Below are positions 2,230 through 54,900 of a DNA stretch of 64,000 bases, piece by piece. A model generated the notes under the pieces. That model did not search any database. It had not been told where the DNA came from and was given only the letters and a program-made list of their open reading frames with translations. Position numbers and translations under genes: made by a program. Numbering within the stretch: position 1 is the stretch's first letter; the number at the start of each line of letters is the position of its first letter. The DNA lies in NCBI RefSeq assembly GCF_037042905.1, contig NC_087245.1, forward strand, positions 36,458,001-36,522,000, read 5' to 3'. Source of the stretch: Lytechinus pictus. Taxonomy: Eukaryota.

Positions 2230-2230
2230 T

Positions 2231-6290: not shown

Positions 6291-6321
<31 letters not shown>

Positions 6322-6828: not shown

Positions 6829-7000
6829 TGTTGTGTATACAGTCTGAATGAAGACTAGTGCGAGGAGACCCGAGATAGGGTGCACAAGGAAATCGTGTAG
6901 TAAAATGGATGCCGATTAAAGTAACGTTTGTGTTGGAATTTGCAGAGTGAATTCTTGTCTTATTTAGACCTCTACTGTAGTTATGGACTGGTATTGAACA
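6829..7000 (+). repeat. 3' LTR of element A (172 bp)
   Basis: Identical to 2048-2219; followed by TSD gacat. Confidence 0.97.
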
Positions 7001-9494: not shown

Positions 9495-9960
9495 GGTAAA
9501 ATGGCAGAGGTAATAATGGCAGAGGTAAAAATGGTAGAGGTAAAAATGGTAGAGGTAAAATGGCAGAGGTAATAATGGCAGAGGTAAAAATGGTAGAGGT
9601 AAAATGGTAGAGGTAATAATGGCAGAGGTAAAAATGGTAGAGGTAAAATGGCAGAGGTAATAATGGCAGAGGTAAAAATGGTAGAGGTAAAAATGGTAGA
9701 GGTAAAAATGGTAGAGGTAATAATGGCAGAGGTAAAAATGGTAGAGGTAATAATGGCAGAGGTAAAAATGGTAGAGGTAATAATGGCAGAGGTAAAAATG
9801 GTAGAGGTAAAAATTGTAGAGGTAAAAATGGCAGAGGTAAAAATTGTAGACGTAAAAATGGTAGAGGTAAAAATGGCAGAGGTAAAAATGGCAGAGGTAA
9901 TAATGGCAGAGGTAAAAATGGTAGTGGTTCAAATGACAGCGGCAAAAATGACAGAGGTAT
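9495..9960. repeat. Minisatellite, ~15-bp unit (gcagaggtaataatg / gtagaggtaaaaatg)
   Basis: About 30 tandem units visible; source of the LPLPF, MVEVK and YLCH ORFs. Confidence 0.95.
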
Positions 9961-16328: not shown

Positions 16329-16701
16329 CAATGACTATACGTGTAATTCAGACAACCTCGGCAGCGCGCGCATGCGCGGCTCTGGCAATGTCGATCGTAA
16401 TTGGGGGGGGGGGGGGATTTTCGTCCGCCTTTAGTGAATTTTTATTCAGGGGCGGATCCATACAGCGTTCGACATAGGGCTCGATGGGGGTGAGGATTAA
16501 TAGGAGAAATAATGTCTCGATATTTCATGTATTACATAGACCTGGCACATACGCCAAAACTTTGCTATTTATTATGTTTTTTTTTTGAATTTGTATACTA
16601 TTTTCTGTCCGCAGTATGCATCGATCTCTTCAACTGTGCTTTTTCACACCAATGTTAGTGTCAGTTTGCCAGACTGTTTGGCGAAAATGTGCACCCCCAT
16701 A

Positions 16702-18044
16702 CAGTGCGTATAAAAAAAACGGGACAGTTTTGAAAAGTCTGTAAAAAATTGTTTCAAATTATGATATCTATATTTTGATGTTAATAGATGCTCTGAAATC
16801 TTATCTTTGAAATGCCATTTAAAAAAAAACTGTTCATGCTTGAGCGAACACGGGACGTTTTTGTTGGGGGTTCAAAGAGAGGCTTGCGCCAAAATGGCAG
16901 AAATTAGAAATTTGATGATCAGACTTTTTGCTAATCAGCAGGCTTCCTTTTTACCTTTTCATTATCTTCGCCATGATTTTCGAATTATGCTGTCAAATTT
17001 TATTTACAAATGTATTTATATACTTGAATTATTTTGTTTTTTCATTAAAACTTCTTTAACCTTTGAATTTTCCTTCATAAGTAAGAAAAGAAGACTTTTG
17101 TCAACCCAAGGAAGAAGATTTGCGTTATTAATCATGTTAATTGGGAGAACTTGTAGTTATTCAAATCGTATTTTATTAGGTGAAAAAAATTACGTTATGG
17201 TACCTTTATAATAGAAAAACATGAATCCTATTTTCAAGGGGTCATTGATTCCTTGACCAAGTTTAATTAAGTGCTTGACAGGGCAAACAGGAAAGGATTC
17301 ATGTCTTTCAATGGCAATGTATTGAGTAAATTTTGAAGGAGCTAGATATGGCAGATCGGATAAAATGTATTTAAATAGTTGTGAGCGAGCAAGCAAAAAA
17401 TTCCACTTTTTTAAATATCCAATTCTGTGATAGATTTTGACAAAATATTTACAAAATAAATCATATTTCACTTTCTATCTTTCCTTGTATTCCCTTTCCA
17501 CTTTTTTATTGGGGGGGGGGGGGGGTAACACCCCGAGCCCCCACCCATCTGTATGCCACTGTTCAAAAGCACCATAACCTTTGTAGCACACAATGGAAGG
17601 ATTAAAAAATACACGCTTTCCCATACTTCGGTTTAAACATTTTGTTTTTGCTTATAGAATGAATATTGAAAGCTAAAAGAGAACATATTAAAAAGAAACA
17701 ACAGAACAATTCAGGCAAATAAACAGATTCGAAAATGAATTTTAACAGCATAATTCGAAAATTATGTCAAAGATAATTAAAAGGTTAAAAGGAAGTCTGC
17801 TAAATAGCAAGAAGTCCGATCATCATATTTATCATGTTATGCCATTTTGGCGCAATATTCCTTTTTAACCCTAAACAAAAACATTCCGTGTTCGCTCAAG
17901 CATGAACAAAACTATTTTTTTAATGGCATTTGAAAGATGAGACCTCAGAGCACCTATTAACACCAATATATACAGATGTCATAATTTGAAGAAAAAAAAA
18001 TTTATAGACTTTTCAAATCTGTCCCGTTTTTTCGATACGCACTG
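16702..18044. mobile_element. Tc1/mariner-type non-autonomous element, TA TSD, ~300-bp TIRs
   Basis: ta|cagtgcgtat...cgggacag ... ctgtcccg...atacgcactg|ta. Confidence 0.88.
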
Positions 18045-18954
18045 TATAGGCATATTGGTTTTTGAAACTACAAATGTTTAGAAAAATTTCAACAAATTAA
18101 AACTTCATATTTCTAAATAAATGATGCAAATAAGTGTATGAAAATATGTTTTGCTGTTAACTCATATTATTGCTTGTAGAATGCTAATTTTGGTTGAAAA
18201 CATAAATTTGACATTTTTAACAAAAAAAAAAAAAAAAGAATGTCAAAACATGATTTATTTCTTATGTAGTTTATTGTAGGCCAATTTTTAATTTATCATG
18301 TATTTTTTTTTTCTTTTTTTTCTTCAATATTTTTGTTAAGGAATCTGAACTTGGGGACCGGAAGTTCACCCTGACAAAAGTTAGATACGCCACGTATCGT
18401 ATGCTCCTCAATTTACCTCTCAGTCATCTAATTTTAAGATCAATATGGGATCTTTAGTGAAATATAATTTCTCCTTTATATCTTATGTTTCTCTTACTAT
18501 ACCCCCTTCTGGTTTTTCATCTCTTTATTTTTTGCCTTTCTTTTCTCCCTGCTTATTTCGCCCCTTTTGCCTCTTCTCCAGTTTCCTAACATTTCTGGCA
18601 CATTATGAATATATCTGGGGCGTATACGCGTGGGTGATATAGCACCAAAAAGGGAGAAATAGAAAGAGGAGGGAAGGGAGAAAAAAAATATACGAGAAAC
18701 TGTGGAGGAAATGATAATAATACATAGGAATTTCGCAAATCAAGAATTTCATTTGCAGTGATCATTATCTATACTTCCCTTAGAAAACTTATTACAAAAT
18801 CCTGCCATTGTTTGCCTTTATTTAATACTCTGTATCAATCATAATTGATACATATTGTATCCAATTCATCCCTAAAATTGTGATAAGAAGGATTTAATAG
18901 GTATAAAATAAATTAAAAATGCATGTTATTTTTTATTACAAGACGTATTTTTTT

Positions 18955-21007: not shown

Positions 21008-22477
21008 AACAAGCAGTGAGTTGGTGACGAAGGATGCTGGCTGGTGGATCCTCACGCTCGTGTGCGACATTCGATTCATTTCTCACGTAAAATAATTAGA
21101 TGACTTCTTTGATATACACCCAAACTTCTTTCTCCTACCTGGAAAACTGGGCACCTAAATTCGCTTTCAACCTGTTCAACTGAAACACCAGCCGATGTCG
21201 TACTAGTTTTAGTTATTGCACCGAGCTCCAACGTCTACCTTCATTCAGCTCGCGGCCGCCGTCGTTTACGGGCTGAACATCTTGTAAATTGGCCTCACCT
21301 CATCAGTGATCATTCGGTGTGTGTTTTCATCGGTCTATTGTAAACGGCCAGGTACTTTTTGACAAGCATCGAGGTGTCACTTTTATGATCACAACTTCTT
21401 TAGATCAGAAGGTAAATATCATTATGTAACCAGATACAAATAGTGCTATCAATCATAGTATGACAAAATTTCACTTTTGACTTGTCTCGTGAAATGATCT
21501 TGTGGTTTTTAGCAACGGAGTGTTGATCCCTGTATTGTATCTGATATTGATAAGATGCAATTGCAATTTAGCATTTTTTGGTAATACCAAATAGGAATTT
21601 TATCTACGTTATTTTATTTTGTATGCAGTCCTACTTGTCTACATTGCAGACATGTTATCTTATTAATCATACATAGATCTAGGACCATTTTTTGTGTATT
21701 CTGTCTTATTTCATATGAATGAATGCTGCCTAATTTAAATAAATGACAATCATGCCACATATCGACTGGGTGCATGATCATTGATCTAGTGTTATTTTGG
21801 TAAGATACACTAGCTGTAATACATCACAAGTTACAGTTAATCATTTAACAGGTTGCTCTAGCTCTTGCAGTGTAGAAGGCTTGTAAATGTCAATGCATGC
21901 ATGACTCGCATTATTTAGAAGCATTTAAGCCTCCATTGTGAATGACAATTGTAAAATATCAGCAATTCCTTTTTCATGTTCTTGATATTGTGAAGAAATA
22001 CCCCCAAAATTTTTCAAAATTCTCTTTTAATATTTTCTATTTAGATCTGTGCTTACTTTCAGCCAGAATTAATTATCCAAAATCTATCCAAAATTCCACT
22101 TTAATACAACGCCACCACTCACAGCTGTTGTTTGTTTTGAATCTTGAATGAACGTAGTAAAATCAGCTGAGTGTGTTTACTACAGCAGTCAATGAGCATA
22201 GTAACGGAGGCAGATTGTGCTATTTTTAGAACCACAGCAATACATAGGATTTAGTACGTGGGACAAGGTTAGGTTAATGGCGTGCACGGTGATGCACGGA
22301 GCGAGTTTTCTCGATAAATTGTCACTTACCTTGTAAATGTCTTTTAGGTGAGGAGCTTGATGCTCTATTTTTCCCTTTTATGATAAAATGATGTCTTTAA
22401 TGATCCTATTTTAGTCACTAGAAGTGATTATTCCCTACCGGAAATGGTACATTCTGTATTTCGTCTTTCGCGGGTGA

Positions 22478-22595
22478 TGACGTCACAAACTTTTGGCCAA
22501 TCACGTAAGCGGGCAAATCAAGTTTTTGTCAGGCGATAGGGGCCCGATGGCTAGGGGTATAAAAGGGGCAGAGGGTGAAAATTTCTTCACTTTGC
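22478..22595 (+). promoter_or_regulatory. Pol II promoter in the LTR (CRE, CCAAT, TATA, Inr)
   Basis: TGACGTCA 22478-22485, CCAAT 22497-22501, TATAAAA 22558-22564, Inr-like TCACTTT with the A at 22589; canonical spacing. Confidence 0.75.
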
Positions 22596-23380
22596 ATCTT
22601 TGAGAGTATTTGTCTAGAGAGAACTCCAAGCCAGTCTTCCAGTTGAAAGTACTTGTAAGCGTTTGACCTTAGCAAGAATCGTGAGTGGAATATTTCTTTA
22701 AACTTCTTAAGGTTATATAATATCCCCCCCCCCTTTTCTATAAAAAGGAATTTCTAATTAAATTTGTGAGAACTGGAATTTCGAAGTTCTTTATAGAAAT
22801 TTTAGGCTTGATGCCCGATCGATGAGATGAATATTTTTATGTCTGCCCTTAACGTTGGTCTTACTCTTAGAGATATTACTTGATTGCTGATTTTATTTTG
22901 TATGTGGTACACAACAGAATTTAAGGAGAGTTTTGTTTTGTTTTTCCCTCTTTCTCAATTGATAAACGCAGAAGTATGAAACATCGTAACGTTAAGGAAA
23001 TTGGGGTAACTTAGGGACAAAAGTGCAAGGGTACCTCGTAGTTATGTAGTCTTTAGTTTGAGTTTGTTTTGTACCTCGTAGTTGCCTATAAATCTAGGCT
23101 TAAGTCTTTTACGTCTTGACAGATGAATATTTAGATGTTATTTCATGATGTGTCTATGGAAATGTTGTAGGCCTAGACTGTTTTAAGTCAGAGAATGTGG
23201 ATGTAGGCCTAGATTTTATTGTATTGTGCATGGAAGAATATGAATTCCCCCCCCCCCCTTCCTTCGACGAAGTTGGCTGGCGTTGTACAGAGAGGTCGAG
23301 GGCAGCTCGAACTCAGTACGGTAGATTGACGGCGGCAGAAATGAGAGGTTCGACAAGTGACAATCCTGAGTAAGGAACGT

Positions 23381-23629
23381 CATCGTGCACCGGTACTCTC
23401 AGTACTCTGTACTTCTCATCGTGCATCGCGTACTCTCAGTACTCTGTACTTCTCATCGTGCACCGGTACTCTCAGTACTCTGTACTTCTCATCGTGCACC
23501 GGTACTCTCAGTACTCTGTACTTGTCATCGTGCATCGCGTACTCTCGGTACTCTGTACTTCTCATCGTGCACCGGTACTCTAGTCTCAGTACTCTGTACT
23601 TCTCATCGTGCATCGCGTACTCAGTACTC
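23381..23629 (+). repeat. Tandem array in the 5' LTR, 7 units of 36-37 bp
   Basis: catcgtgca(ccg/tcgc)gtactctcagtactctgtacttct; unit starts 23381, 23417, 23454, 23490, 23526, 23563, 23604. Confidence 0.95.
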
Positions 23630-25748
23630 CACACCAGTGAACACTGGGCACCGTCTACCAAACCCCTGTCCATCTGAGATGACTTCATAGCTGCTTTCTT
23701 ACATTCAATCCCGGTTAGGGAACGAATTTAAGCAGTCTTCACCATGTTTTCTTCAGTATTTCTGACATTCAATCCCGGATAGGGAACGAATTTAAGCAGT
23801 CTTCACCACGTTTGCTTCGATGTTTCTTCAATTCTTCGACAGCATGGAACCTCTTGACTCTTACCCCCCCCCCCCCTCTCTCATCCTTCCAAGTTATTCA
23901 TGCACACATACAATTATTAATAACTTGTATTTTGGTAGTGTATTAATTCTTATAAAGTTATTTCTAAATACTTAACCAGAACATTTACATGGTTCTAATG
24001 CAAGGAGTTAGAATGGTTGGAATGTTAAGTTTTATGTCTTGTTATGGACCAGGTTGAACATAGGAAGTTGTTGGTATAAAAAGGACTTTGTTAGTCTAAT
24101 ATTTGGGAGATAAAATCTCGAGGCCAGATATTACTAGGAGTTAGTGGCAGGAAATAGGCCGGGGTGGAGAGACCTTGGAATGGCCATTGAAGTGGCGCGA
24201 TGGGTTGGAAACAGGAAAGTTTAGGATTATGTTATAGTTAGGAGAAAAGGTTTGATATCTAGATGCAGGCATTAGATATGTTAAGCAAAGTGATGGTGTA
24301 GAAACAAAGACACCTTTATACCAACTTGGAATGTTGTTCGGAAGACCGTAGAGAATATAGAATAGGCCTACTCGCAGCAAGGTTATGGAAATGATGAAGT
24401 TAGATGGAAATATTTACAAAGTTCACACTTTTACTGAACACAAATCAAACAGACTATGTTGTAGAATTTAAGATAGTTTATTCGAAGAGTGACGAAGCAG
24501 AAATTTCTCGTCATTTATTTACAGCGTAGGTTTATTAAATGTTCGGTGAACATTTAATTATTTTTATTAAGACGTCAGCCATGTAACCTAGGACGGTGAA
24601 CATTTAATTATTTGTATTAAGACGTCAGCCATGTAACCTAGGACTTAGTTTTAAGCATGTAAATATGTCAATTACTGTATAGAAACATCTGATAAAAATG
24701 CCACTTTTACTATTCATGAATTTACAAGAGTTTGAATTGTTAAAGTTATTGTTGTTAATAAATGTTTTACATCGGGTATAACTCGACTTGATGGTTTCCA
24801 AATGAGAAATTACTTAGACCTGGTTTAGTTGCACGAATGTCTGATTAGATCGAGTAGTGACCAGTGGTCGTTGATGTGAATCATGGAATTGTAGTAAATA
24901 GTCTTAAGTCTTAGTAATTTATAGATAGAGTGTTCGTATATTTCGAACAAACGTCCCCGTCATCGACCCTCGACTTAATTACCATGCTATCCGTGAGACA
25001 GAATGTCGTTAGAGAGAAGTCTGAATGAACATGATGTATGCTGGGCATCTGTGGTTTGCTACTGGAAATGTTCTTGGATGGCCGATTGATGTGCTTGTTG
25101 TGTGCTCGAGATTGTTATGAGTGATTGAAGTGCTGTTGTTGTATTGACCGAAGTTACAACGAGCGACCACTGTGCATGTGCAAATGGCTAATCAATGTGC
25201 ACATCGTAACATGTGTCAACTCTTTGTAATTTGGTTGTGTGTACAATGTTGTGTGCATACTGAACATGTGAATGTTCGAAGTGAGTGAAGTAGATTGATT
25301 GATTGTTGAGCTTGACCAGTCATGAATAGTTTAGCTAATTAGTAGGGATGATCAGTTGACTATTACAGTTGACTTACCAGATAAATTCTTGATTGTTGTG
25401 ATGCTGGTCTTGGGAACGAGAGTGGAGAAGGAGTCAAATGTTTGGTCAGTCAGCTGAACTTGGGTCTCCGGTCGTGTATGCATGATTGTGGAGTGCAGAG
25501 CTTATGTGTGTAATGTCGTGCACGTGCGACTGATTGAGGAGATCGAGCATGAGTCATGCCCTTCCCAGTCCTCACCCCCCCCCCCCCCCCTTGTCTACCC
25601 AGTATGAGTCCCAGCTATTGTTACGTCATGTTAGATTTCTGTATAGGTTGTCTGGATTTCCCCGGAACAACCAAGGGCTCATACCCCTAGAAAAGTATGT
25701 GGTGGCAGCATTTTACCTTTTGTTAGGAGGGTCTCACGTTACATTTTC

Positions 25749-25767
25749 TGGTGGCAGCGGTGGGATT
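25749..25767 (+). promoter_or_regulatory. Primer-binding site, tRNA-Leu
   Basis: TGGTGGCAGCGGTGGGATT, 5 nt after the LTR; complement of the ...AAUCCCACCGCUGCCACCA end of tRNA-Leu(AAG)-type tRNAs (recall). Confidence 0.88.
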
Positions 25768-26366: not shown

Positions 26367-27386
26367 ATGGAAGGTGAGCAAGAAAACATTACTGGTGGTG
26401 GTGATAGGTCACACTGGACGGTGGTCAGTGACGATCCAGAAATCGCAGTAGGAGAATCAGGAGATGTTCAGCAGAATTCTGGACACGTTTACACGCCACA
26501 AGGATTCAGAGATAACCCTCTTTACGTTCAGAGCACACAAACCACTGAAGTGAAGCAGAATGAATCAGGATTCCGTAAAGATGTCTTGCCGGAGAAATTT
26601 GGTGGAAAGACGCCATGGGGTGATTACAAGCGTCATTTCGAGGTTTGCATGAACTTGAATCGATGGTCTGACTATGAAGCAGGGCAATTTCTGGCAACAA
26701 GGCTTCAAGGTTCTGCGTTGAAGATCCTGAATAATTTCCCTGCTGGAAGGCGCATCTCATACCGAGAACTTGTATCACAGCTGGAGAGTAGATTTGGTCC
26801 TGGAGAACAAGCAGAAAATTTCCTCCTGGAGTTACGTGTGCGACGTAGACACAAGGATGAGACGCTTCAGGAACTTGGGCAGGCAATCAGAGACCTGACG
26901 TGTTTGGCCTACCCAGAGCTAAGCAGTGAAGCTCGACAGCGACTGGCAAGGGGACATTTCTCCGATGCGATTGACGACCCGGAGATTAGGGCTGGAATTT
27001 TCAGGGCCCATCCACAGACGCTTGATGACGCCATCCAAGCTGGTCTTGCAACAGAGTCATTCCTTAGGGCCGAGAAATCAAGAGATCGAAATAGACTTCC
27101 CCGTCACGTCCGTGCAGTGGATTCTGTTCAACCAGTACCTATGGACGAGAAAACAAGAAAGGAAATTGAGGAGTTGAAGATGAACATGAAACGGCTAAGT
27201 ACATTGATTGAGGATATGGCTATCAATCACCAACCAAACAGAAACTATAAAGCGTGTTTCAACTGCAATCAAGTGGGACATTTTGCAAGGGAGTGCCCAC
27301 AGACCAATGCAAGACAGGGAAACGACAGCCGGTCTTTCCGAGGGGCCACGGCCAGGCCGAGTTTCAGACAGGGTCCACGAGTTTAA
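26367..27386 (+). CDS. Gag, 339 aa
   Basis: PEKFGGKTPWGDYKRHFE capsid-like start; CFNCNQVGHFAREC knuckle. Confidence 0.93.
   Translation: MEGEQENITGGGDRSHWTVVSDDPEIAVGESGDVQQNSGHVYTPQGFRDNPLYVQSTQTTEVKQNESGFRKDVLPEKFGGKTPWGDYKRHFEVCMNLNRWSDYEAGQFLATRLQGSALKILNNFPAGRRISYRELVSQLESRFGPGEQAENFLLELRVRRRHKDETLQELGQAIRDLTCLAYPELSSEARQRLARGHFSDAIDDPEIRAGIFRAHPQTLDDAIQAGLATESFLRAEKSRDRNRLPRHVRAVDSVQPVPMDEKTRKEIEELKMNMKRLSTLIEDMAINHQPNRNYKACFNCNQVGHFARECPQTNARQGNDSRSFRGATARPSFRQGPRV
27317..27323 (+). promoter_or_regulatory. -1 ribosomal frameshift slippery heptamer
   Basis: G_GGA_AAC in the gag frame inside the gag/pol overlap; pol is in the -1 frame; GC-rich sequence follows. Confidence 0.85.
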
Positions 27387-29317
27387 GCTCACACAAGAAT
27401 CAGCATACAGTTATTTGCACCATTACCGAGACTGATCAGAGTATGTTTGTGACAGGAGTTGTTAAGAATGAAACATTGCTGCTATTAATCGACACTGGGT
27501 CAACAGTTACTATACTATCTAACAAGGCATATTGCAAAATGAAGGAATTCAATATGCTAGATGATGTGAATGTAAAATTGTTGCAAGCTGACGGGACACC
27601 CATTGAAGTATTTGGAAAAGCATGGATCATAATCACGATTGGGACACTATCTCATAGGATGGAGGCTGTTATAGCAGATATCAAACATGATGGCATCCTG
27701 GGATTGGATTTTCTGAGTAGTAGGAGGGTGAAAATCGACTGTGAACAAAATCATATCAGCATCGATGGTGAAATCATCCCATGTGAGGACCGCACAGGAG
27801 GAAGACTTGAACTTCCACTTCAAACAGCAGCTGTCACTCAATCTACTACTGAAGTACCAGACCATTTGATAGATGTCTACAATAGTACCAAACTCAGCAT
27901 TGATGAGGAGTACTACCATGATGTCGCTAATTTGTTGTCAGAATTTAGTGATGGATTCTCTAAGGGTGATCATGATATTGGACGTACTGACAGGGTCAAA
28001 CATAGCATCCACACCACAAGCACTGGACCAATCCGGCAGAGACCGAGACGCCATCCCATGGGACAAAGAGAAGAGGTTGAGAAACAAATTCAAGACATGC
28101 TTGCACGGGGTATTATCAAACCCTCGAATAGTGCCTGGTCTTCTCCAATTGTATTAGTGGACAAGAAAGATGGAACCAAGCGATTCTGCGTTGATTATAG
28201 ACTGCTAAACAAGTACACAGCAAAAGACTCATTTCCACTGCCCAGTATTGCTGAATCATTGGATTCACTTGATGGTGCAAAATATTTTTGCACGCTGGAT
28301 CTAGCATCTGGATACTGGCAAGTTCCCCTAGACGATGATGCCAAGGCAAAATCAGCATTCGTGGTACCAGGAGGGCTGTATGAATTTGAAGTCATGCCAT
28401 TTGGACTTTGCAATGCACCATCCACCTTCGAGAGATTAATGGAAAATGTCTTAACAGGATTGCAATGGAAAATACTTTTGATCTATCTCGATGACGTCAT
28501 AGTGTATGGTCCATCGGTACCGGAGATGATTAACAGACTGAAGACTACCCTTCAACGGCTGCGGGAAGCAAATCTAAAACTCAAACCAAAGAAGTGTCAC
28601 CTATTTCAGAAGGAGGTGCTATACCTAGGTCATGTGGTGTCTGAACACGGAGTTAGTACAGATCCCGCTAAGATTGAAGTCGTTTCAAGCTGGCCTACAC
28701 CTACCAACCCAACTGATGTAAGGAGCTTCTTGGGCCTTGCCTCATACTATAGGAGGTTCATTAAGAAATTTGCTGATGTTGCCAAGCCACTGACTGCTCT
28801 CACTCAGAAAGATCACCAATTCGTCTGGACGGAGGAGTGTGAATCTGCATTTAACACACTGAAGGAAAGACTTACTACAGCACCCATACTAACTTACCCC
28901 AGGTTAGATGCAGAGTTCCTGTTAGACACTGATGCAAGCAAGTATGGAATGGGAGCTGTACTCTCACAAGAGAAAGATGACAAGGAATTAGTGGTAGCAT
29001 ATGCAAGCAGGACTCTAAACAGGGCAGAGCAAAACTACTGCGTGACCAGACGGGAGTTACTTGCTGTTGTCACATTTCTGAAGCATTTCAGACATTATTT
29101 GTATGGACAGAAAGTAACAGTGCGCACTGATCATGGAGCTCTTAGATGGTTAATGGATTTCAAAAATCCAGAAGGTCAATTAGCAAGATGGTTAGAGGTC
29201 ATCAGCCAATATAGACTTACCTTAGTTCATCGTGCTGGACGGGTACACATGAATGCAGATGGATTGTCTCGGCGTCCCTGTTCCCAGTGTGGTAGACTAG
29301 AAGATATCTGCAAGTAG
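27323..29317 (+). CDS. Pol (protease, RT, RNase H) entered by frameshift; ends before integrase
   Basis: LIDTGS; RFCVDYR, LDLASGYWQ, MPFGL, YLDD; DTDAS...RRE...RTDH...NADGLSR; TAG at 29315-29317. Confidence 0.93.
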   Translation, partial: RQPVFPRGHGQAEFQTGSTSLSSHKNQHTVICTITETDQSMFVTGVVKNETLLLLIDTGSTVTILSNKAYCKMKEFNMLDDVNVKLLQADGTPIEVFGKAWIIITIGTLSHRMEAVIADIKHDGILGLDFLSSRRVKIDCEQNHISIDGEIIPCEDRTGGRLELPLQTAAVTQSTTEVPDHLIDVYNSTKLSIDEEYYHDVANLLSEFSDGFSKGDHDIGRTDRVKHSIHTTSTGPIRQRPRRHPMGQREEVEKQIQDMLARGIIKPSNSAWSSPIVLVDKKDGTKRFCVDYRLLNKYTAKDSFPLPSIAESLDSLDGAKYFCTLDLASGYWQVPLDDDAKAKSAFVVPGGLYEFEVMPFGLCNAPSTFERLMENVLTGLQWKILLIYLDDVIVYGPSVPEMINRLKTTLQRLREANLKLKPKKCHLFQKEVLYLGHVVSEHGVSTDPAKIEVVSSWPTPTNPTDVRSFLGLASYYRRFIKKFADVAKPLTALTQKDHQFVWTEECESAFNTLKERLTTAPILTYPRLDAEFLLDTDASKYGMGAVLSQEKDDKELVVAYASRTLNRAEQNYCVTRRELLAVVTFLKHFRHYLYGQKVTVRTDHGALRWLMDFKNPEGQLARWLEVISQYRLTLVHRAGRVHMNADGLSRRPCSQCGRLEDICK

Positions 29318-29429
29318 AGATATATTGTAAATAAGCATTTTGTTTTAGGAGTTAATTACATATGTACATATTGTGTTATTTTGATTACTATAGAAACTGA
29401 TGGATAGCTGAATTAGTCAAACTATAGTC

Positions 29430-30455
29430 ATGGATGTTGAAAATGAGATAGTGGAGAAAGTTCAGGCAATCAGCCTTTCACCCGGCATAAGCAATGCTGA
29501 AATTAAGAGAGCACAACTTCAAGATGTTGATCTGAAACATATACTACGGTGGAAACAAGAAGCAAGACAGAAGCCTGAGTGGAAAGATGTGTCCAGTTTG
29601 TCATCAGCTACAAAGTCGTACTGGGTCAATTGGGACTTATTGACCATTCGGGATGATATCCTCATGAGGAGATGGGAATCTAATGATGGGAAAGAGGTCA
29701 ACTGGAAAGTAGTTTTACCCCATTCACTTCGTCAACTGGTGCTCCAGGAATTGCACAGCTCCAAGACAGCATGTCACCTGGGAGTAAATAAGCTATTGCA
29801 CAAAGTACAACAAAGATATTACTGGGTGGGATTAGCAGCTGATGTCAGGTCATTTGTGCGCAAGTGTGTAGTCTGCTCTAAGCTGAAAAATCCACCCAAG
29901 AAATCAAGAGCCCCATTACAAAAGTACAGAGTAGGAGCCACTTTGGAGAGGGTAGCGATGGACATTTTAGGCCCCTTACCAGTAACTGACAGAGGAAATC
30001 GGTACGTCTTGGTAATTGGTGATTATTTCACCAAATGGATAGAGTCGTACCCAATTCCGGATCAAGAAGCTAGGACAGTGGCAAGGATTGTAGTGGAAGA
30101 ATTCATCTGTCGATATGGCATTCCAAAAGAATTACACACAGACCAAGGGAGGAATTTTGAGTCTAATGTTATGACAGAAGTTTGTAAGATGATGGGCATA
30201 AAGAAAACTAGGACATGCCCGCTTCATCCCAGGAGTGATGGATATATAGAAAGATTCAATAGAACGCTAGTTACCATGGTATCTTCCATTCTAGATCCTG
30301 ACCGCCACCAGAGAGACTGGGATGAGCAGATTCCATATGCGATGTTGGCTTATAGATCAGCAGTCCAAGAATCCACAGATGACTTATTTGTACTGCCACA
30401 TCTGCAAGAAGAGCATCAAAGGTTACAAGTATGGACAGCATATGCAGGAACATGA
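29430..30455 (+). CDS. Integrase in a separate ORF, C-terminally truncated
   Basis: LHSSKTACHLG...CVVC zinc motif; AMDILGP, LHTDQGRNFE, GYIERFNRTL catalytic core; homology ends at AYRSAVQEST (about 30378). Confidence 0.9.
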   Translation: MDVENEIVEKVQAISLSPGISNAEIKRAQLQDVDLKHILRWKQEARQKPEWKDVSSLSSATKSYWVNWDLLTIRDDILMRRWESNDGKEVNWKVVLPHSLRQLVLQELHSSKTACHLGVNKLLHKVQQRYYWVGLAADVRSFVRKCVVCSKLKNPPKKSRAPLQKYRVGATLERVAMDILGPLPVTDRGNRYVLVIGDYFTKWIESYPIPDQEARTVARIVVEEFICRYGIPKELHTDQGRNFESNVMTEVCKMMGIKKTRTCPLHPRSDGYIERFNRTLVTMVSSILDPDRHQRDWDEQIPYAMLAYRSAVQESTDDLFVLPHLQEEHQRLQVWTAYAGT

Positions 30456-31266
30456 GGCCACTATGACGCTCCAGTGTACATACTGTTCATACGAAACTGA
30501 GGGGAGATCCGAGATGACGAGGCACTTTGGAAGAATGCATAACAGCAGAAAACAGGAGGCTAAATACATTAACTACACGGCGGCGACAAATGAACATCTA
30601 AGTAGGAAACGTGAAGGGGAGAGGAAAAGAAGGGACAAAGAGGAAGAAAGGAAGACAGAAAGGGAGAGTAAGGACAGGAAGGAAAGAAAGCGTGAAGTAG
30701 AAGAGGAAGAAAGGAAGACAGAAAGGGAGAGTAAGGACAGGAAGGAAAGAAAGCGTGAAATAGAGGAAGAAAGGAAGACAGAAAGGAAGGAAAGAAAGCA
30801 TGAAGGAGAGGAAGAAAGGAAGACAGAAAGGGAAAGTAAGGACAGGAGGGAAAGTAAGGACAGGAAGGAAAAGAAAGACAGGGAGGACATTAAGAAAGAG
30901 AAAGAGGACAGGAAGGAGAAGCTTGAGGAGGAGCAGCCTGAGGAGGAAGACAGAAGAACCCAGTCAGGGGAGGCAGAGGTAGACAGTAGAGATACACTTG
31001 ACCTCCATCCTGATGAGAGCTCGGAGGAAGAGTCTGGGGATGAAGAATCCGAGGAGGAGGAAGAGGACTCCATGTCACGAAAAAGGGAACTAACTGTAAC
31101 CACTGAGGAGGAAATAGACGTAAATTTGAAAGTGAAAAAGCCAAGGTTAGGTTACATCCAAGTGAACAGAGTGGAGGTGTATACAACCACTTTCATAACG
31201 GCATATGGAGAGAAGCGAGTGCATGAGGAGAAGAAGACCATATATTATTTTAATGAACAGAAGTAG
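30379..31266 (+). CDS. Accessory ORF3: 295-aa protein with two C2H2 zinc fingers and charged, acidic and basic tracts
   Basis: CHICKKSIKGYKYGQHMQEH and CTYCSYETEGRSEMTRHFGRMH; ERKTERESKDRKERK repeats; acidic tract ESSEEESGDEESEEEEED; KVKKPR; lies between integrase and PPT. Confidence 0.8.
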   Translation: MTYLYCHICKKSIKGYKYGQHMQEHEATMTLQCTYCSYETEGRSEMTRHFGRMHNSRKQEAKYINYTAATNEHLSRKREGERKRRDKEEERKTERESKDRKERKREVEEEERKTERESKDRKERKREIEEERKTERKERKHEGEEERKTERESKDRRESKDRKEKKDREDIKKEKEDRKEKLEEEQPEEEDRRTQSGEAEVDSRDTLDLHPDESSEEESGDEESEEEEEDSMSRKRELTVTTEEEIDVNLKVKKPRLGYIQVNRVEVYTTTFITAYGEKRVHEEKKTIYYFNEQK

Positions 31267-31450: not shown

Positions 31451-31466
31451 AGTAAGAGGGGGGCAG
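31451..31466 (+). promoter_or_regulatory. Polypurine tract of element B, preceded by a hairpin
   Basis: agtaagagggggcag-type purine run next to the 3' LTR; aatcgctg-gga-cagcgatt at 31431-31449. Confidence 0.85.
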
Positions 31467-34400
31467 TGTGAAGAAATACCCCCAAAATTTTTCAAAATTC
31501 TCTTTTAATATTTTCTATTTAGATCTGTGCTTACTTTCAGCCAGAATTAATTATCCAAAATCTATCCAAAATTCCACTTTAATACAACGCCACCACTCAC
31601 AGCTGTTGTTTGTTTTGAATCTTGAATGAACGTAGTAAAATCAGCTGAGTGTGTTTACTACAGCAGTCAATGAGCATAGTAACGGAGGCAGATTGTGCTA
31701 TTTTTAGAACCACAGCAATACATAGGATTTAGTACGTGGGACAAGGTTAGGTTAATGGCGTGCACGGTGATGCACGGAGCGAGTTTTCTCGATAAATTGT
31801 CACTTACCTTGTAAATGTCTTTTAGGTGAGGAGCTTGATGCTCTATTTTTCCCTTTTATGATAAAATGATGTCTTTAATGATCCTATTTTAGTCACTAGA
31901 AGTGATTATTCCCTACCGGAAATGGTACATTCTGTATTTCGTCTTTCGCGGGTGATGACGTCACAAACTTTTGGCCAATCACGTAAGCGGGCAAATCAAG
32001 TTTTTGTCAGGCGATAGGGGCCCGATGGCTAGGGGTATAAAAGGGGCAGAGGGTGAAAATTTCTTCACTTTGCATCTTTGAGAGTATTTGTCTAGAGAGA
32101 ACTCCAAGCCAGTCTTCCAGTTGAAAGTACTTGTAAGCGTTTGACCTTAGCAAGAATCGTGAGTGGAATATTTCTTTAAACTTCTTAAGGTTATATAATA
32201 TCCCCCCCCCCCCCTTTTCTATAAAAAGGAATTTCTAATTAAATTTGTGAGAACTGGAATTTCGAAGTTCTTTATAGAAATTTTAGGCTTGATGCCCGAT
32301 CGATGAGATGAATATTTTTATGTCTGCCCTTAACGTTGGTCTTACTCTTAGAGATATTACTTGATTGCTGATTTTATTTTGTATGTGGTACACAACAGAA
32401 TTTAAGGAGAGTTTTGTTTTGTTTTTCCCTCTTTCTCAATTGATAAACGCAGAAGTATGAAACATCGTAACGTTAAGGAAATTGGGGTAACTTAGGGACA
32501 AAAGTGCAAGGGTACCTCGTAGTTATGTAGTCTTTAGTTTGAGTTTGTTTTGTACCTCGTAGTTGCCTATAAATCTAGGCTTAAGTCTTTTACGTCTTGA
32601 CAGATGAATATTTAGATGTTATTTCATGATGTGTCTATGGAAATGTTGTAGGCCTAGACTGTTTTAAGTCAGAGAATGTGGATGTAGGCCTAGATTTTAT
32701 TGTATTGTGCATGGAAGAATATGAATTCCCCCCCCCCCCCTTCCTTCGACGAAGTTGGCTGGCGTTGTACAGAGAGGTCGAGGGCAGCTCGAACTCAGTA
32801 CGGTAGATTGACGGCGGCAGAAATGAGAGGTTCGACAAGTGACAATCCTGAGTAAGGAACGTCATCGTGCACCGGTACTCTCAGTACTCTGTACTTCTCA
32901 TCGTGCATCGCGTACTCTCAGTACTCTGTACTTCTCATCGTGCACCGGTACTCTCAGTACTCTGTACTTCTCATCGTGCACCGGTACTCTCAGTACTCTG
33001 TACTTGTCATCGTGCATCGCGTACTCTCGGTACTCTGTACTTCTCATCGTGCACCGGTACTCTAGTCTCAGTACTCTGTACTTCTCATCGTGCATCGCGT
33101 ACTCAGTACTCCACACCAGTGAACACTGGGCACCGTCTACCAAACCCCTGTCCATCTGAGATGACTTCATAGCTGCTTTCTTACATTCAATCCCGGTTAG
33201 GGAACGAATTTAAGCAGTCTTCACCATGTTTTCTTCAGTATTTCTGACATTCAATCCCGGATAGGGAACGAATTTAAGCAGTCTTCACCACGTTTGCTTC
33301 GATGTTTCTTCAATTCTTCGACAGCATGGAACCTCTTGACTCTTACCCCCCCCCCCCCCCCTCTCTCATCCTTCCAAGTTATTCATGCACACATACAATT
33401 ATTAATAACTTGTATTTTGGTAGTGTATTAATTCTTATAAAGTTATTTCTAAATACTTAACCAGAACATTTACATGGTTCTAATGCAAGGAGTTAGAATG
33501 GTTGGAATGTTAAGTTTTATGTCTTGTTATGGACCAGGTTGAACATAGGAAGTTGTTGGTATAAAAAGGACTTTGTTAGTCTAATATTTGGGAGATAAAA
33601 TCTCGAGGCCAGATATTACTAGGAGTTAGTGGCAGGAAATAGGCCGGGGTGGAGAGACCTTGGAATGGCCATTGAAGTGGCGCGATGGGTTGGAAACAGG
33701 AAAGTTTAGGATTATGTTATAGTTAGGAGAAAAGGTTTGATATCTAGATGCAGGCATTAGATATGTTAAGCAAAGTGATGGTGTAGAAACAAAGACACCT
33801 TTATACCAACTTGGAATGTTGTTCGGAAGACCGTAGAGAATATAGAATAGGCCTACTCGCAGCAAGGTTATGGAAATGATGAAGTTAGATGGAAATATTT
33901 ACAAAGTTCACACTTTTACTGAACACAAATCAAACAGACTATGTTGTAGAATTTAAGATAGTTTATTCGAAGAGTGACGAAGCAGAAATTTCTCGTCATT
34001 TATTTACAGCGTAGGTTTATTAAATGTTCGGTGAACATTTAATTATTTTTATTAAGACGTCAGCCATGTAACCTAGGACGGTGAACATTTAATTATTTGT
34101 ATTAAGACGTCAGCCATGTAACCTAGGACTTAGTTTTAAGCATGTAAATATGTCAATTACTGTATAGAAACATCTGATAAAAATGCCACTTTTACTATTC
34201 ATGAATTTACAAGAGTTTGAATTGTTAAAGTTATTGTTGTTAATAAATGTTTTACATCGGGTATAACTCGACTTGATGGTTTCCAAATGAGAAATTACTT
34301 AGACCTGGTTTAGTTGCACGAATGTCTGATTAGATCGAGTAGTGACCAGTGGTCGTTGATGTGAATCATGGAATTGTAGTAAATAGTCTTAAGTCTTAGT

Positions 34401-35225
34401 AATTTATAGATAGAGTGTTCGTATATTTCGAACAAACGTCCCCGTCATCGACCCTCGACTTAATTACCATGCTATCCGTGAGACAGAATGTCGTTAGAGA
34501 GAAGTCTGAATGAACATGATGTATGCTGGGCATCTGTGGTTTGCTACTGGAAATGTTCTTGGATGGCCGATTGATGTGCTTGTTGTGTGCTCGAGATTGT
34601 TATGAGTGATTGAAGTGCTGTTGTTGTATTGACCGAAGTTACAACGAGCGACCACTGTGCATGTGCAAATGGCTAATCAATGTGCACATCGTAACATGTG
34701 TCAACTCTTTGTAATTTGGTTGTGTGTACAATGTTGTGTGCATACTGAACATGTGAATGTTCGAAGTGAGTGAAGTAGATTGATTGATTGTTGAGCTTGA
34801 CCAGTCATGAATAGTTTAGCTAATTAGTAGGGATGATCAGTTGACTATTACAGTTGACTTACCAGATAAATTCTTGATTGTTGTGATGCTGGTCTTGGGA
34901 ACGAGAGTGGAGAAGGAGTCAAATGTTTGGTCAGTCAGCTGAACTTGGGTCTCCGGTCGTGTATGCATGATTGTGGAGTGCAGAGCTTATGTGTGTAATG
35001 TCGTGCACGTGCGACTGATTGAGGAGATCGAGCATGAGTCATGCCCTTCCCAGTCCTCACCCCCCCCCCCCCTTGTCTACCCAGTATGAGTCCCAGCTAT
35101 TGTTACGTCATGTTAGATTTCTGTATAGGTTGTCTGGATTTCCCCGGAACAACCAAGGGCTCATACCCCTAGAAAAGTATGTGGTGGCAGCATTTTACCT
35201 TTTGTTAGGAGGGTCTCACGTTACA
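31467..35225 (+). repeat. 3' LTR of element B (3759 bp)
   Basis: Copy of 21989-25743 including promoter and array (32863-33111); followed by TSD atat. Confidence 0.96.
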
Positions 35226-36700
35226 ATATGTATGCAGACTCCACTTGGCATGACATGAATTATGAATGACTTGAATGGCATGATAATTGTCTTGACAATA
35301 GACGGATAAAGAAGGGGGGGGGGGCTTCCATGCAATAGTACATCATTAGGAAATGGTAAGAAAGGGAAGTTATGTTATATAAACAAACATTTGTCATGAG
35401 ATTGAAGCTTTCCATGAATCCCTGTCTCATACAGATTGCTGGGCGATGATGATTATAATGCGTCTAAAGAATATATTGTCAAATGTAAGATTTTTAAAGC
35501 ACCTAAATGATCAAGAATTAACTCGTCACTACTTTGCTTCTCATGACGGCACACAGATATGGAACCACTCATGAATGCTCAGCACAATTATTTCATCTTT
35601 TTGGGGTCATATTTAGATGGTAATGCCATCTCAAGAGTGCAATATTTTCACTGCACCTTAATAACATGAAAAGAGTGCTCCCAAATGATCGCTTTCACTT
35701 TCCAAACACACAGGTTTCCCTTTAAATATTTCCAAAGAATTGGATCCCCATCCCCCCTAAAACAGGTGCTTATAGTCGACTATGATATTTGTATCAAATT
35801 GTAAATTTTGTAGAGTGATATGAGCTATGGACATTCTGCTGGTGAGAAGAAAAAATGTTGAAACTGGGAACTTTTCAATCATGATTAAGTACCAACCTTA
35901 ACACTAAATGGTAAAAAAAACTCTATAAAAAACCCTAACACTCTAATTTACATAGCAAAGAAGGATGGGGGGGGGGGGGGGGGGGCTTGGCTGGCAATGT
36001 ATTCTGCTGTCTCAAAATAGAATCACATAGCCTTCAAAGAGGAAGTGGTCTGGGGATAATCCTCAGAGATGTCCTTTTGATGGTATTTTTACTTATATGG
36101 TATCTTTGAAATCTGAAAGAAAATAACAACTTTATTCAGAATATACATGGATACAGGTATTTCTATGAGCTAGAGTCCCCAGTTTTTCATGATAGAGAAA
36201 AGAGAAAGAAAATCATGGAATTCAGGAAGTACACAGATTTCAAAGAATTTCACAGAAAAAAAACATTGTACTGGCCAAACATGTGAATTGCAAAATATGC
36301 AATGAAAATCATTCATGTTAAGTGAAAATCTGTCCTCTCTGTCAAACATGTTTGCTGTGTTTAGCATGTGATTGCAAAGCTGTATCTGTATTGATTTTTT
36401 TTTTTTGGGGGGGTTAGTTTTTCATTCAAAATTGCTTTGAAATCTTGTTATGTGCACGTTACCCAACACCAACACAAATGAACAGCGTATTGGCATTTTA
36501 TAAAACAGAACAATGTAGGGTTTCTGCATAATCCCTACTTTGATGATTGGAAGTTATGATATAGACTACTGGAATTACATTTTCATTAGCTTTATTGTAT
36601 TGTAATTCATGATTTTTTGTAAATTAACCCTTTCTGCATGTGCTGTTGGTGTTTATGTATATACTATATACCAATAAAGAAATAAGAAAGTAAAAAAGGG

Positions 36701-36739: not shown

Positions 36740-36779
36740 AAAATGACAGAAATAAAGAAATAAATAATAATGATAATAA

Positions 36780-37905
36780 ATGAATGAATGAGGGAGTGAA
36801 GAAGAGAAGGAGTAAGACAGTGGGTGAATGAGTGTATGGGTCGGTGGGTGAGTTAGTAAGAGAGGAAGTGGGTGAGTGAGTGGGAGAGTAAGTTAGGGAG
36901 GGAGTGGGTGGGTGAGTGAGTTGGTTAGATAGGGGTGAGTGGGAGAGTCAGTGAGTACATGAGCGATTCTTTGGGTGGGTGGGCGAGTGGGAGAGATAGT
37001 GAGTGAGGGAGTGGGTGAGTGAGTGGGTTAGTGAGTGGGTGGGTGAATGATTGGGTTGATGAGTGAGTGAATGAGGGAGTGGGTGGGTGAGTGGGAGAGT
37101 GAGTAGGTTAGTGAGTGAATGGGGGAGTTAGGGGTGGTGGGTGGGTGAGTGAGTTGTTTAGTGAGGGGTGAGTGGGAGAGTTAGCGAGTACATGAGTGAT
37201 TTGTTGGGTGGGTGAGTGAGTGAGTGGGTGGGTAGATGAATGATTGGGTTGATGAGTGAGTGAGCGAGTGAGGGAGTGGGTGGGTGAGTGAGTTGGTTAG
37301 ACGGGGTGAGTGGGAGATTTAGTGAGTACATGAGAGATTCCTTGGGTGGGCGAGTGAGTGGGTTAGTGAGTGAATGGGGGAGTTAAGGAGTGGTGGGTGG
37401 GTGAGTGAGTTGTTTAGTGAGGGATGAGTGGGAGAGTTAGCGAGTACATGAGTGATTTGTTGGGTGGGTGAGTGAGTGGGTGGGTGGGTGAATGATTGGG
37501 TTGATGAGCGAGTGAATGAGCGAGTGAATGAGGGAGTGGGTGGGTGAGTGACTTGGTTAGATGGGGTGAGTGGGAGATTTAGTGAGTGTACATGAGTGAT
37601 TCCTTGGGTGGGCGAGTGAGTGGGTTAGTGAGTGAATGGGGGAGTTAAGGAGTGGTGGGTGAGTGAGTTGTTTAGTGAGGGATGAGTGGGAGAGTTAGCG
37701 AGTACATGAGTGATTTGTTGGGTGGGTGAGTGAGTGAGTGGGTGGGTGGGTGAATGATTGGGTTGATGAGCGAGTGAATGAGGGAGTGGGTGGGTGGGTG
37801 AGTGAGTGATTGAGGTAGTTAGTAGGTGGGTGAGTCAGTGGGAGAGTTAGTGATTGAGGGAGTGGGTGGGTGAGTGAATATGTGGGCGGTTCAGTGAGTG
37901 AGTGA
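36780..37905. repeat. Complex (GAGT/GGGT)n satellite with higher-order repetition
   Basis: G/T-skewed tetranucleotides with a recurring gagtacatgag landmark. Confidence 0.92.
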
Positions 37906-41030: not shown

Positions 41031-41679
41031 TGATATTTTTTTCTTCTATATTTCGGTAAAATTACACAATTATTTTCAATTCCATGTTTTTTATGAAATG
41101 GTGCTTACTCTTTTAAGAGGTGAAATTAGAAATATGGGAGAAACGATGTTCAAATGGTCATGAAATTCCTATCCATTTTAATTTTTTTAATAAAAAATTT
41201 AAGATTGTTAAAAGATTTTTAACATTTTTTTAAAGTTTGCGTGTGCCCTTGTATTCATAATAAATGCGCGAAAGGAGTCTTCTTTGTGTGCTTTGCGACT
41301 TTGAACTGGACAAACATCTCTCTCTACCCAGTCCCAAAATGCTGTCGAGAACTAGGGCAAGACTGTGTACATTGAGTCTATCGTCGCTCTGGCGTACATC
41401 TATTCGTATTGATTTGCGCAAAGGTAAGCGGTGGGAAGAATGCATTCCCCTGCATACATTACGCTGTCGGGCTAGAGCTGTATGTGTGTACTCTGATTAC
41501 TAGCCTGCTCACAGAGAATCTTTAGTCACATGTATGTTTGTCACAGATTTGTTTGCTTCTTGTGTTTGGAGGGCTGGAGAGGGGGAGTGTGGAAGAGGGA
41601 GAGGGATAGAGAAGGGGGATGAAGGAGAAGGGAAGATGAGATAGGTAGGGGAGAGAGAGAAAGAGAAAGAAAGATATAT

Positions 41680-41860
<181 letters not shown>

Positions 41861-53784: not shown

Positions 53785-54900
<1,116 letters not shown>

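What the first reader, a model, noticed from the sequence alone, without database searches (positions are those of the whole stretch)
30379..31266. Gypsy retrotransposon carries a C2H2 zinc-finger accessory gene where env would sit
Seen: between integrase and the PPT is an intact 295-aa ORF with two C2H2 fingers (C-x2-C-x11-H-x3-H and C-x2-C-x12-H-x4-H), K/R/E repeats, an acidic tract and a KVKKPR basic motif. It has no signal peptide or hydrophobic segment, so it is not Env. Established: the standard Gypsy complement is gag-pol, sometimes with env or a chromodomain. Inference: this is an element-encoded nuclear regulator (trans-activator, anti-silencing or chromatin factor), analogous to accessory genes of complex retroviruses.
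Basis: partly seen in the sequence, partly recalled or inferred. Interest (0 to 1): 0.88.

Follow-up and report, generated by a model that had tools for sequence, protein, structure and literature searches.

The report
Retrotransposon clade's own zinc-finger gene
A group of sea-urchin jumping genes carries, in the slot where retroviruses keep their envelope gene, a conserved gene for a small zinc-finger protein, most likely a regulator that the element uses to control its own expression; its function has not been tested.

Summary
The ORF is real (30379-31266, 295 aa, two C2H2-type fingers, no hydrophobic segment) and is not a one-off capture. A related third gene (finger pair, low-complexity middle, C-terminal beta-hairpin) follows integrase in 12 Gypsy families or subfamilies of this sea-urchin genome. 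In 10 of 12 it has a splice-acceptor-like site before the ATG (control: 68 of 1884 ATGs). The finger region is under strong purifying selection (22 synonymous, 3 replacement differences between two copies) and diverges far more than neighbouring pol, as if exchanged as a cassette. A profile of the hairpin alone also retrieved unnamed outside proteins that carry the finger pair. Correction: this copy lacks 564 nt (integrase tail), bounded GC...AG, so it probably came from a spliced RNA. In its subclade, integrase is a separate ORF. Best reading: an element-encoded DNA-binding regulator of its own LTR (0.55; inferred). No binding, localisation or expression is shown: three thinly sampled RNA runs had no depth over ORF3. 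Non-env third genes are known; ten paper searches found no C2H2-plus-hairpin one. The scan earlier noted a different, fungal C2H2-JmjC third gene on other DNA.

The parts
21989..25743 (+). 5' LTR, 3755 bp, TG...CA; TATA-like site at LTR position 570, donor-like sites at 667 and 693, 36-bp tandem repeat (6.8 copies) at LTR 1392-1641
21985..21988 (.). Target-site duplication ATAT (second copy 35226-35229)
25749..25766 (+). Primer-binding site, complementary to the 3' end of a host tRNA-Leu
   Evidence: the matching 3' end lies in a tRNA-Leu(TAG) gene in 1 of 4 loci scanned
26367..27386 (+). gag, 339 aa, one CCHC knuckle
27251..29317 (+). PR-RT-RNase H frame overlapping gag, ending in a stop just after RNase H
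29318..29429 (+). 112-nt AT-rich gap with a T-rich tract and AG; a similar gap (112-144 nt) separates RNase H from integrase in all 5 subfamilies of this subclade
29430..30378 (+). Integrase as a separate ORF; in this copy it breaks off after the catalytic core and the frame runs on to a stop at 30455
30378..30379 (+). Junction at which this copy lacks 564 nt present in the sister copy; the absent stretch begins GC after CAG and ends in a pyrimidine tract and CAG directly before the ORF3 ATG
30379..31266 (+). ORF3, 295 aa: the zinc-finger accessory gene
30394..30540 (+). Two C2H2-type fingers (residues 6-25 and 33-54) with a 7-residue linker
30580..30933 (+). K/R/E-rich repeats, modelled as one long helix (residues 68-185, pLDDT above 90 over most of it)
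30934..31110 (+). Acidic tract, low-confidence and probably disordered (residues about 186-244)
31168..31248 (+). C-terminal beta-hairpin (two 12-13-residue strands) with a turn glycine invariant in 23 of 23 aligned sequences; no Pfam family or solved fold matched
31454..31463 (+). Polypurine tract
31467..35225 (+). 3' LTR

Best explanation
ORF3 is an old, selected accessory gene of a sea-urchin Gypsy clade. It is most likely made from its own spliced subgenomic RNA (a donor near the start of the 5' LTR transcript joined to the acceptor before the ATG), as env is in errantiviruses. The protein most likely goes to the nucleus, reads a short DNA motif with its finger pair, uses the beta-hairpin to pair with itself or a partner (two fingers alone read only about 6 bp), and uses the charged and acidic middle as spacer and effector. 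Its most likely target is the element's own LTR, which it activates or shields from silencing; the two cannot be told apart here. SHOWN: the gene, its conservation, selection, acceptor signal, architecture and cassette-like divergence. INFERRED: the spliced mRNA, nuclear location, DNA binding, oligomerisation, the LTR as target and the sign of the effect. The window copy is a young, integrase-truncated derivative, probably copied from a spliced RNA (about 0.8), so it must have been inserted by integrase from another copy.
For: Spread: of 40 integrase-bearing loci fetched (40 of the 124 matches, chosen to span families), 14 have a C2H2-type ORF after integrase; with other loci this gives 12 families or subfamilies with IN 48-99% identical to the window's. 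Paired LTR-like repeats flank 8 of 8 other families tested. Acceptor: YAG within 25 nt of the ATG with at least 70% pyrimidines in 10 of 12, against 68 of 1884 other ATGs (families share ancestry). The 564-nt stretch missing here ends exactly at that acceptor and starts at a GC-type donor match. Selection: first 65 codons, window against the older copy L033, 22 synonymous and 3 replacement differences; C-terminal 67 codons, 12 and 9 (dN/dS 0.16). Architecture: a profile of the hairpin alone found 10 proteins among 1.84 billion; 8 are unnamed ENA proteins and 4 of those 8 carry the N-terminal finger pair, which was not in the query; a Lytechinus variegatus protein also matches. DNA-binding signature: in finger 2, helix position 6 is Arg or Lys in 9 of 12 and position -1 is Arg in 7 of 12, while positions 2 and 3 vary by family (position rules recalled). 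The linker is 5-10 residues, 7 in 4 of the 8 two-finger proteins measured. Precedent for a family-specific, motif-dependent anti-silencer: VANC (PMC6719617, passages).
Against: No expression evidence: three rRNA-depleted RNA runs (about 6 in 100 of each read; 73, 44 and 77 reads laid) had zero depth over the three bins covering nearly all of ORF3 and no sense joint to the acceptor; most reads were antisense (tissue unknown, thin sampling, so weak). Families C and C2 differ at 54% of finger-region residues while the first 1.9 kb of their LTRs are 92-98% identical, which does not fit tight finger-LTR co-evolution (C2 is a decayed copy). Repeated LTR motifs exist in the three long-LTR families tested (A, B, C) but not in F, G or I. 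At least two lineages nested in the clade show no ORF3 (L099; L109 and L112), so it is dispensable. The window's finger 1 has an atypical 11-residue spacer, family H has one finger and family D's second finger lacks the last His. The basic motif is not conserved. The missing 564 nt have CAG at both ends, so a microhomology deletion is not excluded.
Confidence: 0.55

Rival explanations
1. ORF3 is an RNA-level regulator (Rev/Rex-like or SR-like) that sets the balance between unspliced genomic RNA and the spliced messages.
For: Middle regions are Arg/Ser-rich in F and K (14 and 20 RS/SR dipeptides) and mixed-charge in A, B and C (15-30 RE/ER/RD/DR dipeptides), as in splicing-speckle proteins (recalled). 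The A-D subclade has a second acceptor-like gap before integrase, so it would need at least three RNA forms. The window copy looks like a mis-packaged spliced RNA. C2H2 fingers can bind RNA (recalled).
Against: RS content is low in 7 of 9 families measured. Arg at helix positions -1 and 6 fits DNA reading. Families with an unsplit pol also carry ORF3.
Confidence: 0.2
2. ORF3 is a targeting or tethering factor for the integration complex (the job a chromodomain does in chromoviruses), or a particle-associated protein.
For: DNA-binding head, long rigid helix and C-terminal interaction hairpin is a tether-like layout. The gene sits directly behind integrase. ATAT flanks recur in families A, F and G.
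Against: It is a separate frame with its own acceptor and is not fused to integrase in any family read. Its DNA diverges independently of integrase. Short AT-rich target preferences are usually set by integrase itself (recalled).
Confidence: 0.12
3. ORF3 acts mainly on host genes or damps the element (self-repressor, copy-number control), not as an activator.
For: Copy numbers are low: 8 LTR matches for family A and 3 near-identical copies for B. Tandem arrays of ORF3 pieces exist at three loci and some are annotated as host genes.
Against: No host target is known; the arrays are element debris with integrase tails or LTR starts attached.
Confidence: 0.1
4. It is an ordinary host zinc-finger exon captured by this copy, or a chance frame in purine-rich repeats.
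For: Some database homologs carry host-gene names. Two fragments (C17:4.44 Mb, C18:1.98 Mb) had no gag, pol or LTR match within the 20 kb examined.
Against: Those named proteins are ORF3s of elements or array units. Present in 12 families, selected, same position and acceptor. 0 of 2000 shuffles gave such a frame.
Confidence: 0.02

Closest known systems
Ty3/Gypsy elements with a non-env ORF3 (bdelloid rotifer Juno, Vesta, TelKA: DEDDy exonuclease, GDSL esterase, TM or coiled-coil ORF3; Rodriguez et al. 2017, PMC5408684, passages read)
   Same: Separate third ORF after pol, family-specific, gained and lost; the paper states that ORF3s are typically expressed from spliced messages.
   Different: No zinc-finger ORF3 there (0 occurrences of 'zinc finger'); here the product is a non-enzymatic finger-pair protein with an unnamed C-terminal hairpin.
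Errantivirus env (Drosophila gypsy; metazoan survey PMC13524379, passages and a term search of 7 supplementary files)
   Same: Position between integrase and the 3' LTR, acceptor before the gene.
   Different: No signal peptide or membrane segment. That survey found no env-carrying Gypsy in echinoderms, listed both Lytechinus genomes with none, and has no mention of zinc fingers or TatD in text or supplements searched.
Plant additional ORFs (Athila, Tat, Ogre, Tekay aORFs; PMC11728184, passages)
   Same: Conserved extra ORFs of unknown function, often disordered with predicted nuclear signals.
   Different: Plant lineages; no C2H2 pair or hairpin domain described in the passages seen.
VANC anti-silencing proteins of Arabidopsis VANDAL transposons (PMC6719617, passages)
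   Same: Works-like model: an element-encoded accessory protein with family-specific action that depends on a short tandem motif in the element; the long LTRs here carry family-specific tandem repeats.
   Different: VANDALs are plant DNA transposons; no sequence link was tested or expected. That 2019 review says no TE-encoded anti-silencing factor against piRNA or KRAB-ZFP pathways had been described.
Trans-acting genes of complex retroviruses (foamy virus Tas, Tat, Tax, Rev, Rex; recalled; accessory genes mentioned in PMC2774666, passages)
   Same: 3' position, spliced message, regulator of the element's own expression (inferred here).
   Different: No sequence or fold match; host is an invertebrate and the element is a Gypsy retrotransposon.

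Membership tests
Ty3/Gypsy LTR retrotransposon | Two LTRs with TG...CA ends and a target-site duplication | tested here: met
   3755-bp LTRs, 99.7% identical; ATAT duplication
Ty3/Gypsy LTR retrotransposon | gag, then PR-RT-RNase H-IN order | tested here: met
   Pfam zf-CCHC, aspartyl protease, RVT_1, RT_RNaseH, Integrase_H2C2, rve in this order
Ty3/Gypsy LTR retrotransposon | tRNA primer-binding site and polypurine tract | tested here: met
   tRNA-Leu site at 25749-25766; purine tract at 31454-31463
Ty3/Gypsy LTR retrotransposon | Integrase continuous with RT-RNase H in one pol frame (usual layout) | tested here: not met
   Stop and 112-144-nt gap with differing frame offsets in 5 of 5 subfamilies of a clade with support 100/99; outside that clade pol is continuous. 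A variant layout, not a different superfamily.
Named Gypsy clade (GyDB or Repbase) | RT or IN groups with named reference elements | not testable with these tools
   No reference element library was available; the tree holds only this genome's elements
Env (errantivirus-type envelope) | Signal peptide and transmembrane anchor | tested here: not met
   Maximum 19-residue hydropathy 0.21-0.91 in 9 of 9 ORF3s measured; no env family in Pfam
C2H2 zinc-finger protein | C-x2-C-x12-H-x3-5-H fingers | tested here: met
   Finger 2 passes Pfam zf-H2C2_5; C2H2 families matched in 8 of 8 other ORF3s at E under 0.01, over the cut-off in 2; finger 1 of the window has 11 instead of 12 residues
C2H2 zinc-finger protein | Sequence-specific DNA binding | not testable with these tools
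   Only the helix-position pattern was read
VANC-like anti-silencer or Tas-like trans-activator | Binds a motif in the cognate element and raises its expression | not testable with these tools
   Candidate tandem motif found after the fact in 3 of 6 LTRs examined
TFIIA large-subunit mimic | C-terminal three-strand sheet related to TFIIA | tested here: inconclusive
   Weak Foldseek rows (best E 0.13) were not supported by profile comparison with host TFIIA exons (probability 0.1) or the wide fold search

The most novel reading that the evidence does not exclude
A whole clade of animal Gypsy retrotransposons encodes its own sequence-specific zinc-finger factor on an exchangeable, separately spliced cassette. 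The factor binds the cognate LTR and counters host silencing, and sub-lineages swap and recode the cassette to escape host small RNAs made from genomic arrays of ORF3 fragments. Together with the separately encoded integrase and a sister clade's TatD-nuclease third gene, this would make these 'complex' retrotransposons and give a first TE-encoded, family-specific anti-silencing or activating factor in an animal germline.
Probability: 0.25. Interest if true: 0.9.

Novelty: new variant of a known kind. Interest (0 to 1): 0.72.

Why it matters
If ORF3 regulates its own element, animal LTR retrotransposons without env can be 'complex' in the retroviral sense, and the scarcity of known TE-encoded counter-silencing factors in animals (stated in PMC6719617, 2019) becomes directly testable: about a dozen natural finger and LTR pairs in one injectable embryo system, with ORF3-less relatives as controls. 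It also shows that some short zinc-finger 'host genes' in sea-urchin annotations (named PRDM16-like, bowel-like or uncharacterized) are retrotransposon genes, and it offers a route by which zinc-finger modules move between elements and hosts.

Tried and rejected
Single-protein and whole-alignment homolog searches returned only the host's own array products and generic C2H2 proteins (capped at 8000 candidates, so weak for absence). ESM Atlas: generic zinc-finger clusters for the whole protein and no usable hit for family I's C-terminus. Viral contigs: no match to the integrase patterns. Metagenome contigs: 80 loci, all 39% identity or less; 3 of 80 had a C2H2-like motif on the sense strand, and only L151 has it in an ORF after integrase, with no clear acceptor at its ATG and its C-terminus cut off, so it was not counted. 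The hairpin matched no Pfam family, no solved sequence and no fold above Z 2.3; the whole-model search was filled by long helices. A TFIIA-mimic idea from weak Foldseek rows was dropped. The complex predictor was not available, so self-association of the hairpin is untested. Sequencing runs: no RNA holder listed in the index, which is no evidence. The 564-nt joint seen in one contig of run X17 (DNA or RNA unknown) carries the window copy's letters at 3 of 3 diagnostic sites, so it is not an independent splice event. Of the 39 matches, one (C12) had stops and no finger or hairpin match and two (C2:19.4 Mb, C17:2.9 Mb) were not examined. One 'ZF' flag (L114) was a chance pattern and was dropped. 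Synonymous proportions above 1 show saturation and the limits of the counting method; those pairs give no usable dS. The position of family I in the tree is unsure (long-branch root). Paper searches found no description of a C2H2 third gene or a TatD third gene in Gypsy elements; PMC13228809 and PMC1142308 (passages) did not bear on it except that the latter raises packaging of a spliced RNA as a way to lose a coding region. Repbase, Dfam and subscription journals were not searchable and may already hold these families; supplements of the other papers were not seen.

Full report
1. The observation. The ORF runs from 30379 to 31266 and encodes 295 aa. No 19-residue window exceeds a hydropathy of 0.48, and 0 of 2000 shuffles gave so long a frame. 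It lies in a young Gypsy element: LTRs of 3755 bp with 0 mismatches and 4 gaps, an ATAT duplication and a primer site that matches a tRNA-Leu 3' end, and gag, protease, RT, RNase H and integrase. Database names of matching proteins point to a sea urchin, Lytechinus pictus.

2. This copy is a derivative. A sister copy on C3 is about 98% identical but has 564 more bases between the integrase core and the ORF3 ATG. The stretch absent here starts with GC after CAG, a good match to a GC-type donor (consensus recalled), and ends in a pyrimidine tract and CAG directly before the ATG. The simplest reading is that a spliced RNA was reverse-transcribed and inserted with integrase from another copy. A deletion at the 3-base microhomology is the alternative. 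The same joint occurs in one contig of run X17, but with the window's letters at 3 of 3 diagnostic sites, so it is not independent. The family is small: 8 LTR matches, three two-LTR copies.

3. ORF3 is clade-wide. The ORF3 search gave 39 matches at 15 places. Seven places have gag, pol and integrase directly upstream (the window itself and six others), three are tandem arrays attached to integrase tails or LTR starts, two are fragments with no partner found in 20 kb, one looks like a low-complexity match, and two were not examined. Starting instead from integrase (124 matches), I fetched 40 loci spanning the families: 14 have a C2H2-type ORF after integrase, 8 a large ORF of another type, and 18 none that I could see, some being truncated. 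In all, 12 families or subfamilies (A to K plus C2) carry it; paired LTR-like repeats flank 8 of 8 tested. In the integrase tree (33 rows) A, B, C, C2 and D form a clade (100/99); ORF3-less rows nest beside H (98/95) and with J and K (100/99), which points to at least two losses. Family I's place is unsure.

4. One architecture. Each ORF3 has a finger pair (one finger in H), a low-complexity middle that is K/R/E-rich, R/S-rich or acidic depending on the family, and a C-terminal hairpin with one glycine invariant in 23 of 23 aligned sequences. AlphaFold models the fingers, a single helix over residues 68-185, a disordered acidic part and the strands; the hairpin alone has pLDDT above 90 in its core. 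A profile of the hairpin found 10 proteins among 1.84 billion. Two are ORF3s of families E and G annotated as host genes, and 8 are unnamed ENA proteins, 4 of which carry the finger pair that was not in the query. A L. variegatus protein named 'bowel-like' is a family G relative. Their genomic context could not be seen. The hairpin matches no Pfam family or solved fold.

5. Expression signal. Ten of 12 ORF3s have a YAG within 25 nt of the ATG behind at least 70% pyrimidines, against 68 of 1884 other ATGs in the same loci; the two misses score 65%. A spliced subgenomic message is therefore likely, as PMC5408684 states for ORF3s generally (passages). It was not seen: three RNA runs, each read to about 6 in 100, laid 73, 44 and 77 reads on the sister copy, with zero depth over nearly all of ORF3, mostly antisense reads, and no sense joint. 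The tissue is unknown.

6. Selection and cassette behaviour. Window against the older copy L033: 22 synonymous and 3 replacement differences in the first 65 codons, 12 and 9 in the last 67. Against the C2 array copies: about 37 and 5 in eight of nine units (41 and 22 in one decayed unit), saturated. Very close pairs are uninformative (C against L093, G against L100: not significant). The divergence is local. Sister against L033 has 4 synonymous differences in integrase codons 211-482 but 19 in the first 60 ORF3 codons. C and C2 are 96-98% identical in integrase, 89% in the hairpin region and 46% in the fingers; DNA identity falls from 0.97 to 0.68 there. The step at the acceptor suggests that ORF3, and above all its finger exon, is exchanged between sub-lineages by recombination. 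Escape from small RNAs made by the ORF3 arrays would explain why, but is untested.

7. Mechanism. In finger 2, helix position 6 is Arg or Lys in 9 of 12 and position -1 is Arg in 7 of 12, with family-specific residues between. By the usual C2H2 rules (recalled) that is a DNA-reading surface. A short DNA reader with an acidic tract and an interaction hairpin, on its own message at the 3' end, most resembles a self-regulator: I give 0.55 to a factor that binds its own LTR and activates or protects it. The long LTRs of A, B and C carry tandem motifs, as VANC targets do (PMC6719617, passages), but short-LTR families F, G and I do not, and C and C2 changed fingers without changing much of the LTR. 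An RNA-level regulator gets 0.2, because R/S and mixed-charge tracts and a second acceptor-like gap before integrase fit it. Integration tether 0.12, repressor or host-gene regulator 0.1, neutral capture 0.02. Self-association is untested because the complex predictor was not available.

8. Comparison and novelty. The element meets the Gypsy tests except for its split pol; ORF3 fails the Env test. Non-env third ORFs are known in rotifers and plants (PMC5718144, PMC5408684, PMC11728184, PMC2774666; passages), so the kind is known. A metazoan survey found no env-carrying Gypsy in echinoderms and does not mention zinc fingers (PMC13524379; passages and a supplement term search). Ten paper searches found no C2H2-plus-hairpin ORF3; Repbase, Dfam and closed journals were not covered. 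This scan noted a fungal chromovirus with a C2H2-JmjC third gene in another genome (unchecked, a different protein) and nothing similar by sequence or in this genome. I rate it a new variant of a known kind.

9. Verdict. Observation confirmed; interpretation partly supported. A real, selected, clade-wide accessory gene with a new domain combination and no functional proof. Interest 0.72; the boldest reading (family-specific anti-silencer on a swapped cassette) has probability 0.25 and would deserve 0.9.

Noticed in passing
L117, L119-L125 (8 of 40 loci): A separate Gypsy clade (IN 33-39% identical to the window's; support 100/100 for the seven included plus one row without ORF3) carries a large third ORF; 4 of 4 tested match TatD_DNase over the cut-off (88-113 bits), most have one zinc-finger-like motif, and 4 of 4 checked have an acceptor-like site before the ATG. 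A paper search for Gypsy with TatD found 0 papers. It deserves its own study.
   Followed up: partly
window 29318-29429; L065, L071, L094, L127: Integrase is split from RT-RNase H by a stop and an AT-rich, acceptor-like gap in all 5 subfamilies of one clade; frame offsets differ (1, 2, 2, 0, 0), which argues against readthrough or a fixed frameshift. Measured LTRs in this clade are very long (3.6-3.8 kb in A and B, at least 3.7 kb in C) against 0.34-0.71 kb in F, G and I.
   Followed up: partly
G000:C2:33.92-33.96 Mb, C4:21.48 Mb, C14:9.87-9.90 Mb: Tandem arrays of element pieces centred on ORF3: about 0.9-kb units of integrase tail, acceptor and finger exon on C2 (9 units seen), and ORF3 3' half plus LTR start on C14. 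Database gene models string the C2 units together. Possible small-RNA traps or co-opted genes.
   Followed up: partly
L133:1513-6564: RNA reads are mostly antisense to the element and show GT-AG joints on the antisense strand, including two joints that go back to one strong acceptor (3-4 reads each), as in circular RNA or tandem copies.
   Followed up: no
window 23380-23629 and equivalents in B and C LTRs: Family-specific tandem repeats (36, 41 and 24 bp) about 1.2-1.7 kb into the long LTRs share a core AGARTAYT (6, 10 and 10 copies; 0 in three short LTRs; about 0.2-0.3 per kb in flanks). The motif was picked after looking.
   Followed up: partly
window 2048-7000: A second, unrelated compact LTR retrotransposon: 172-bp identical direct repeats around a single 1312-aa gag-pol ORF, no third ORF.
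   Followed up: no
window 9438-10026, 36753-37900, 41584-41880, 53763-54700: Minisatellite and microsatellite arrays, and several inverted-repeat elements (for example arms 16696-17046 and 17692-18050).
   Followed up: no
L102:4818-6872: A long ORF that by its motifs looks like a LINE N-terminus (PHD-like finger, endonuclease) lies just past family I's 3' LTR (label from recalled motifs).
   Followed up: no
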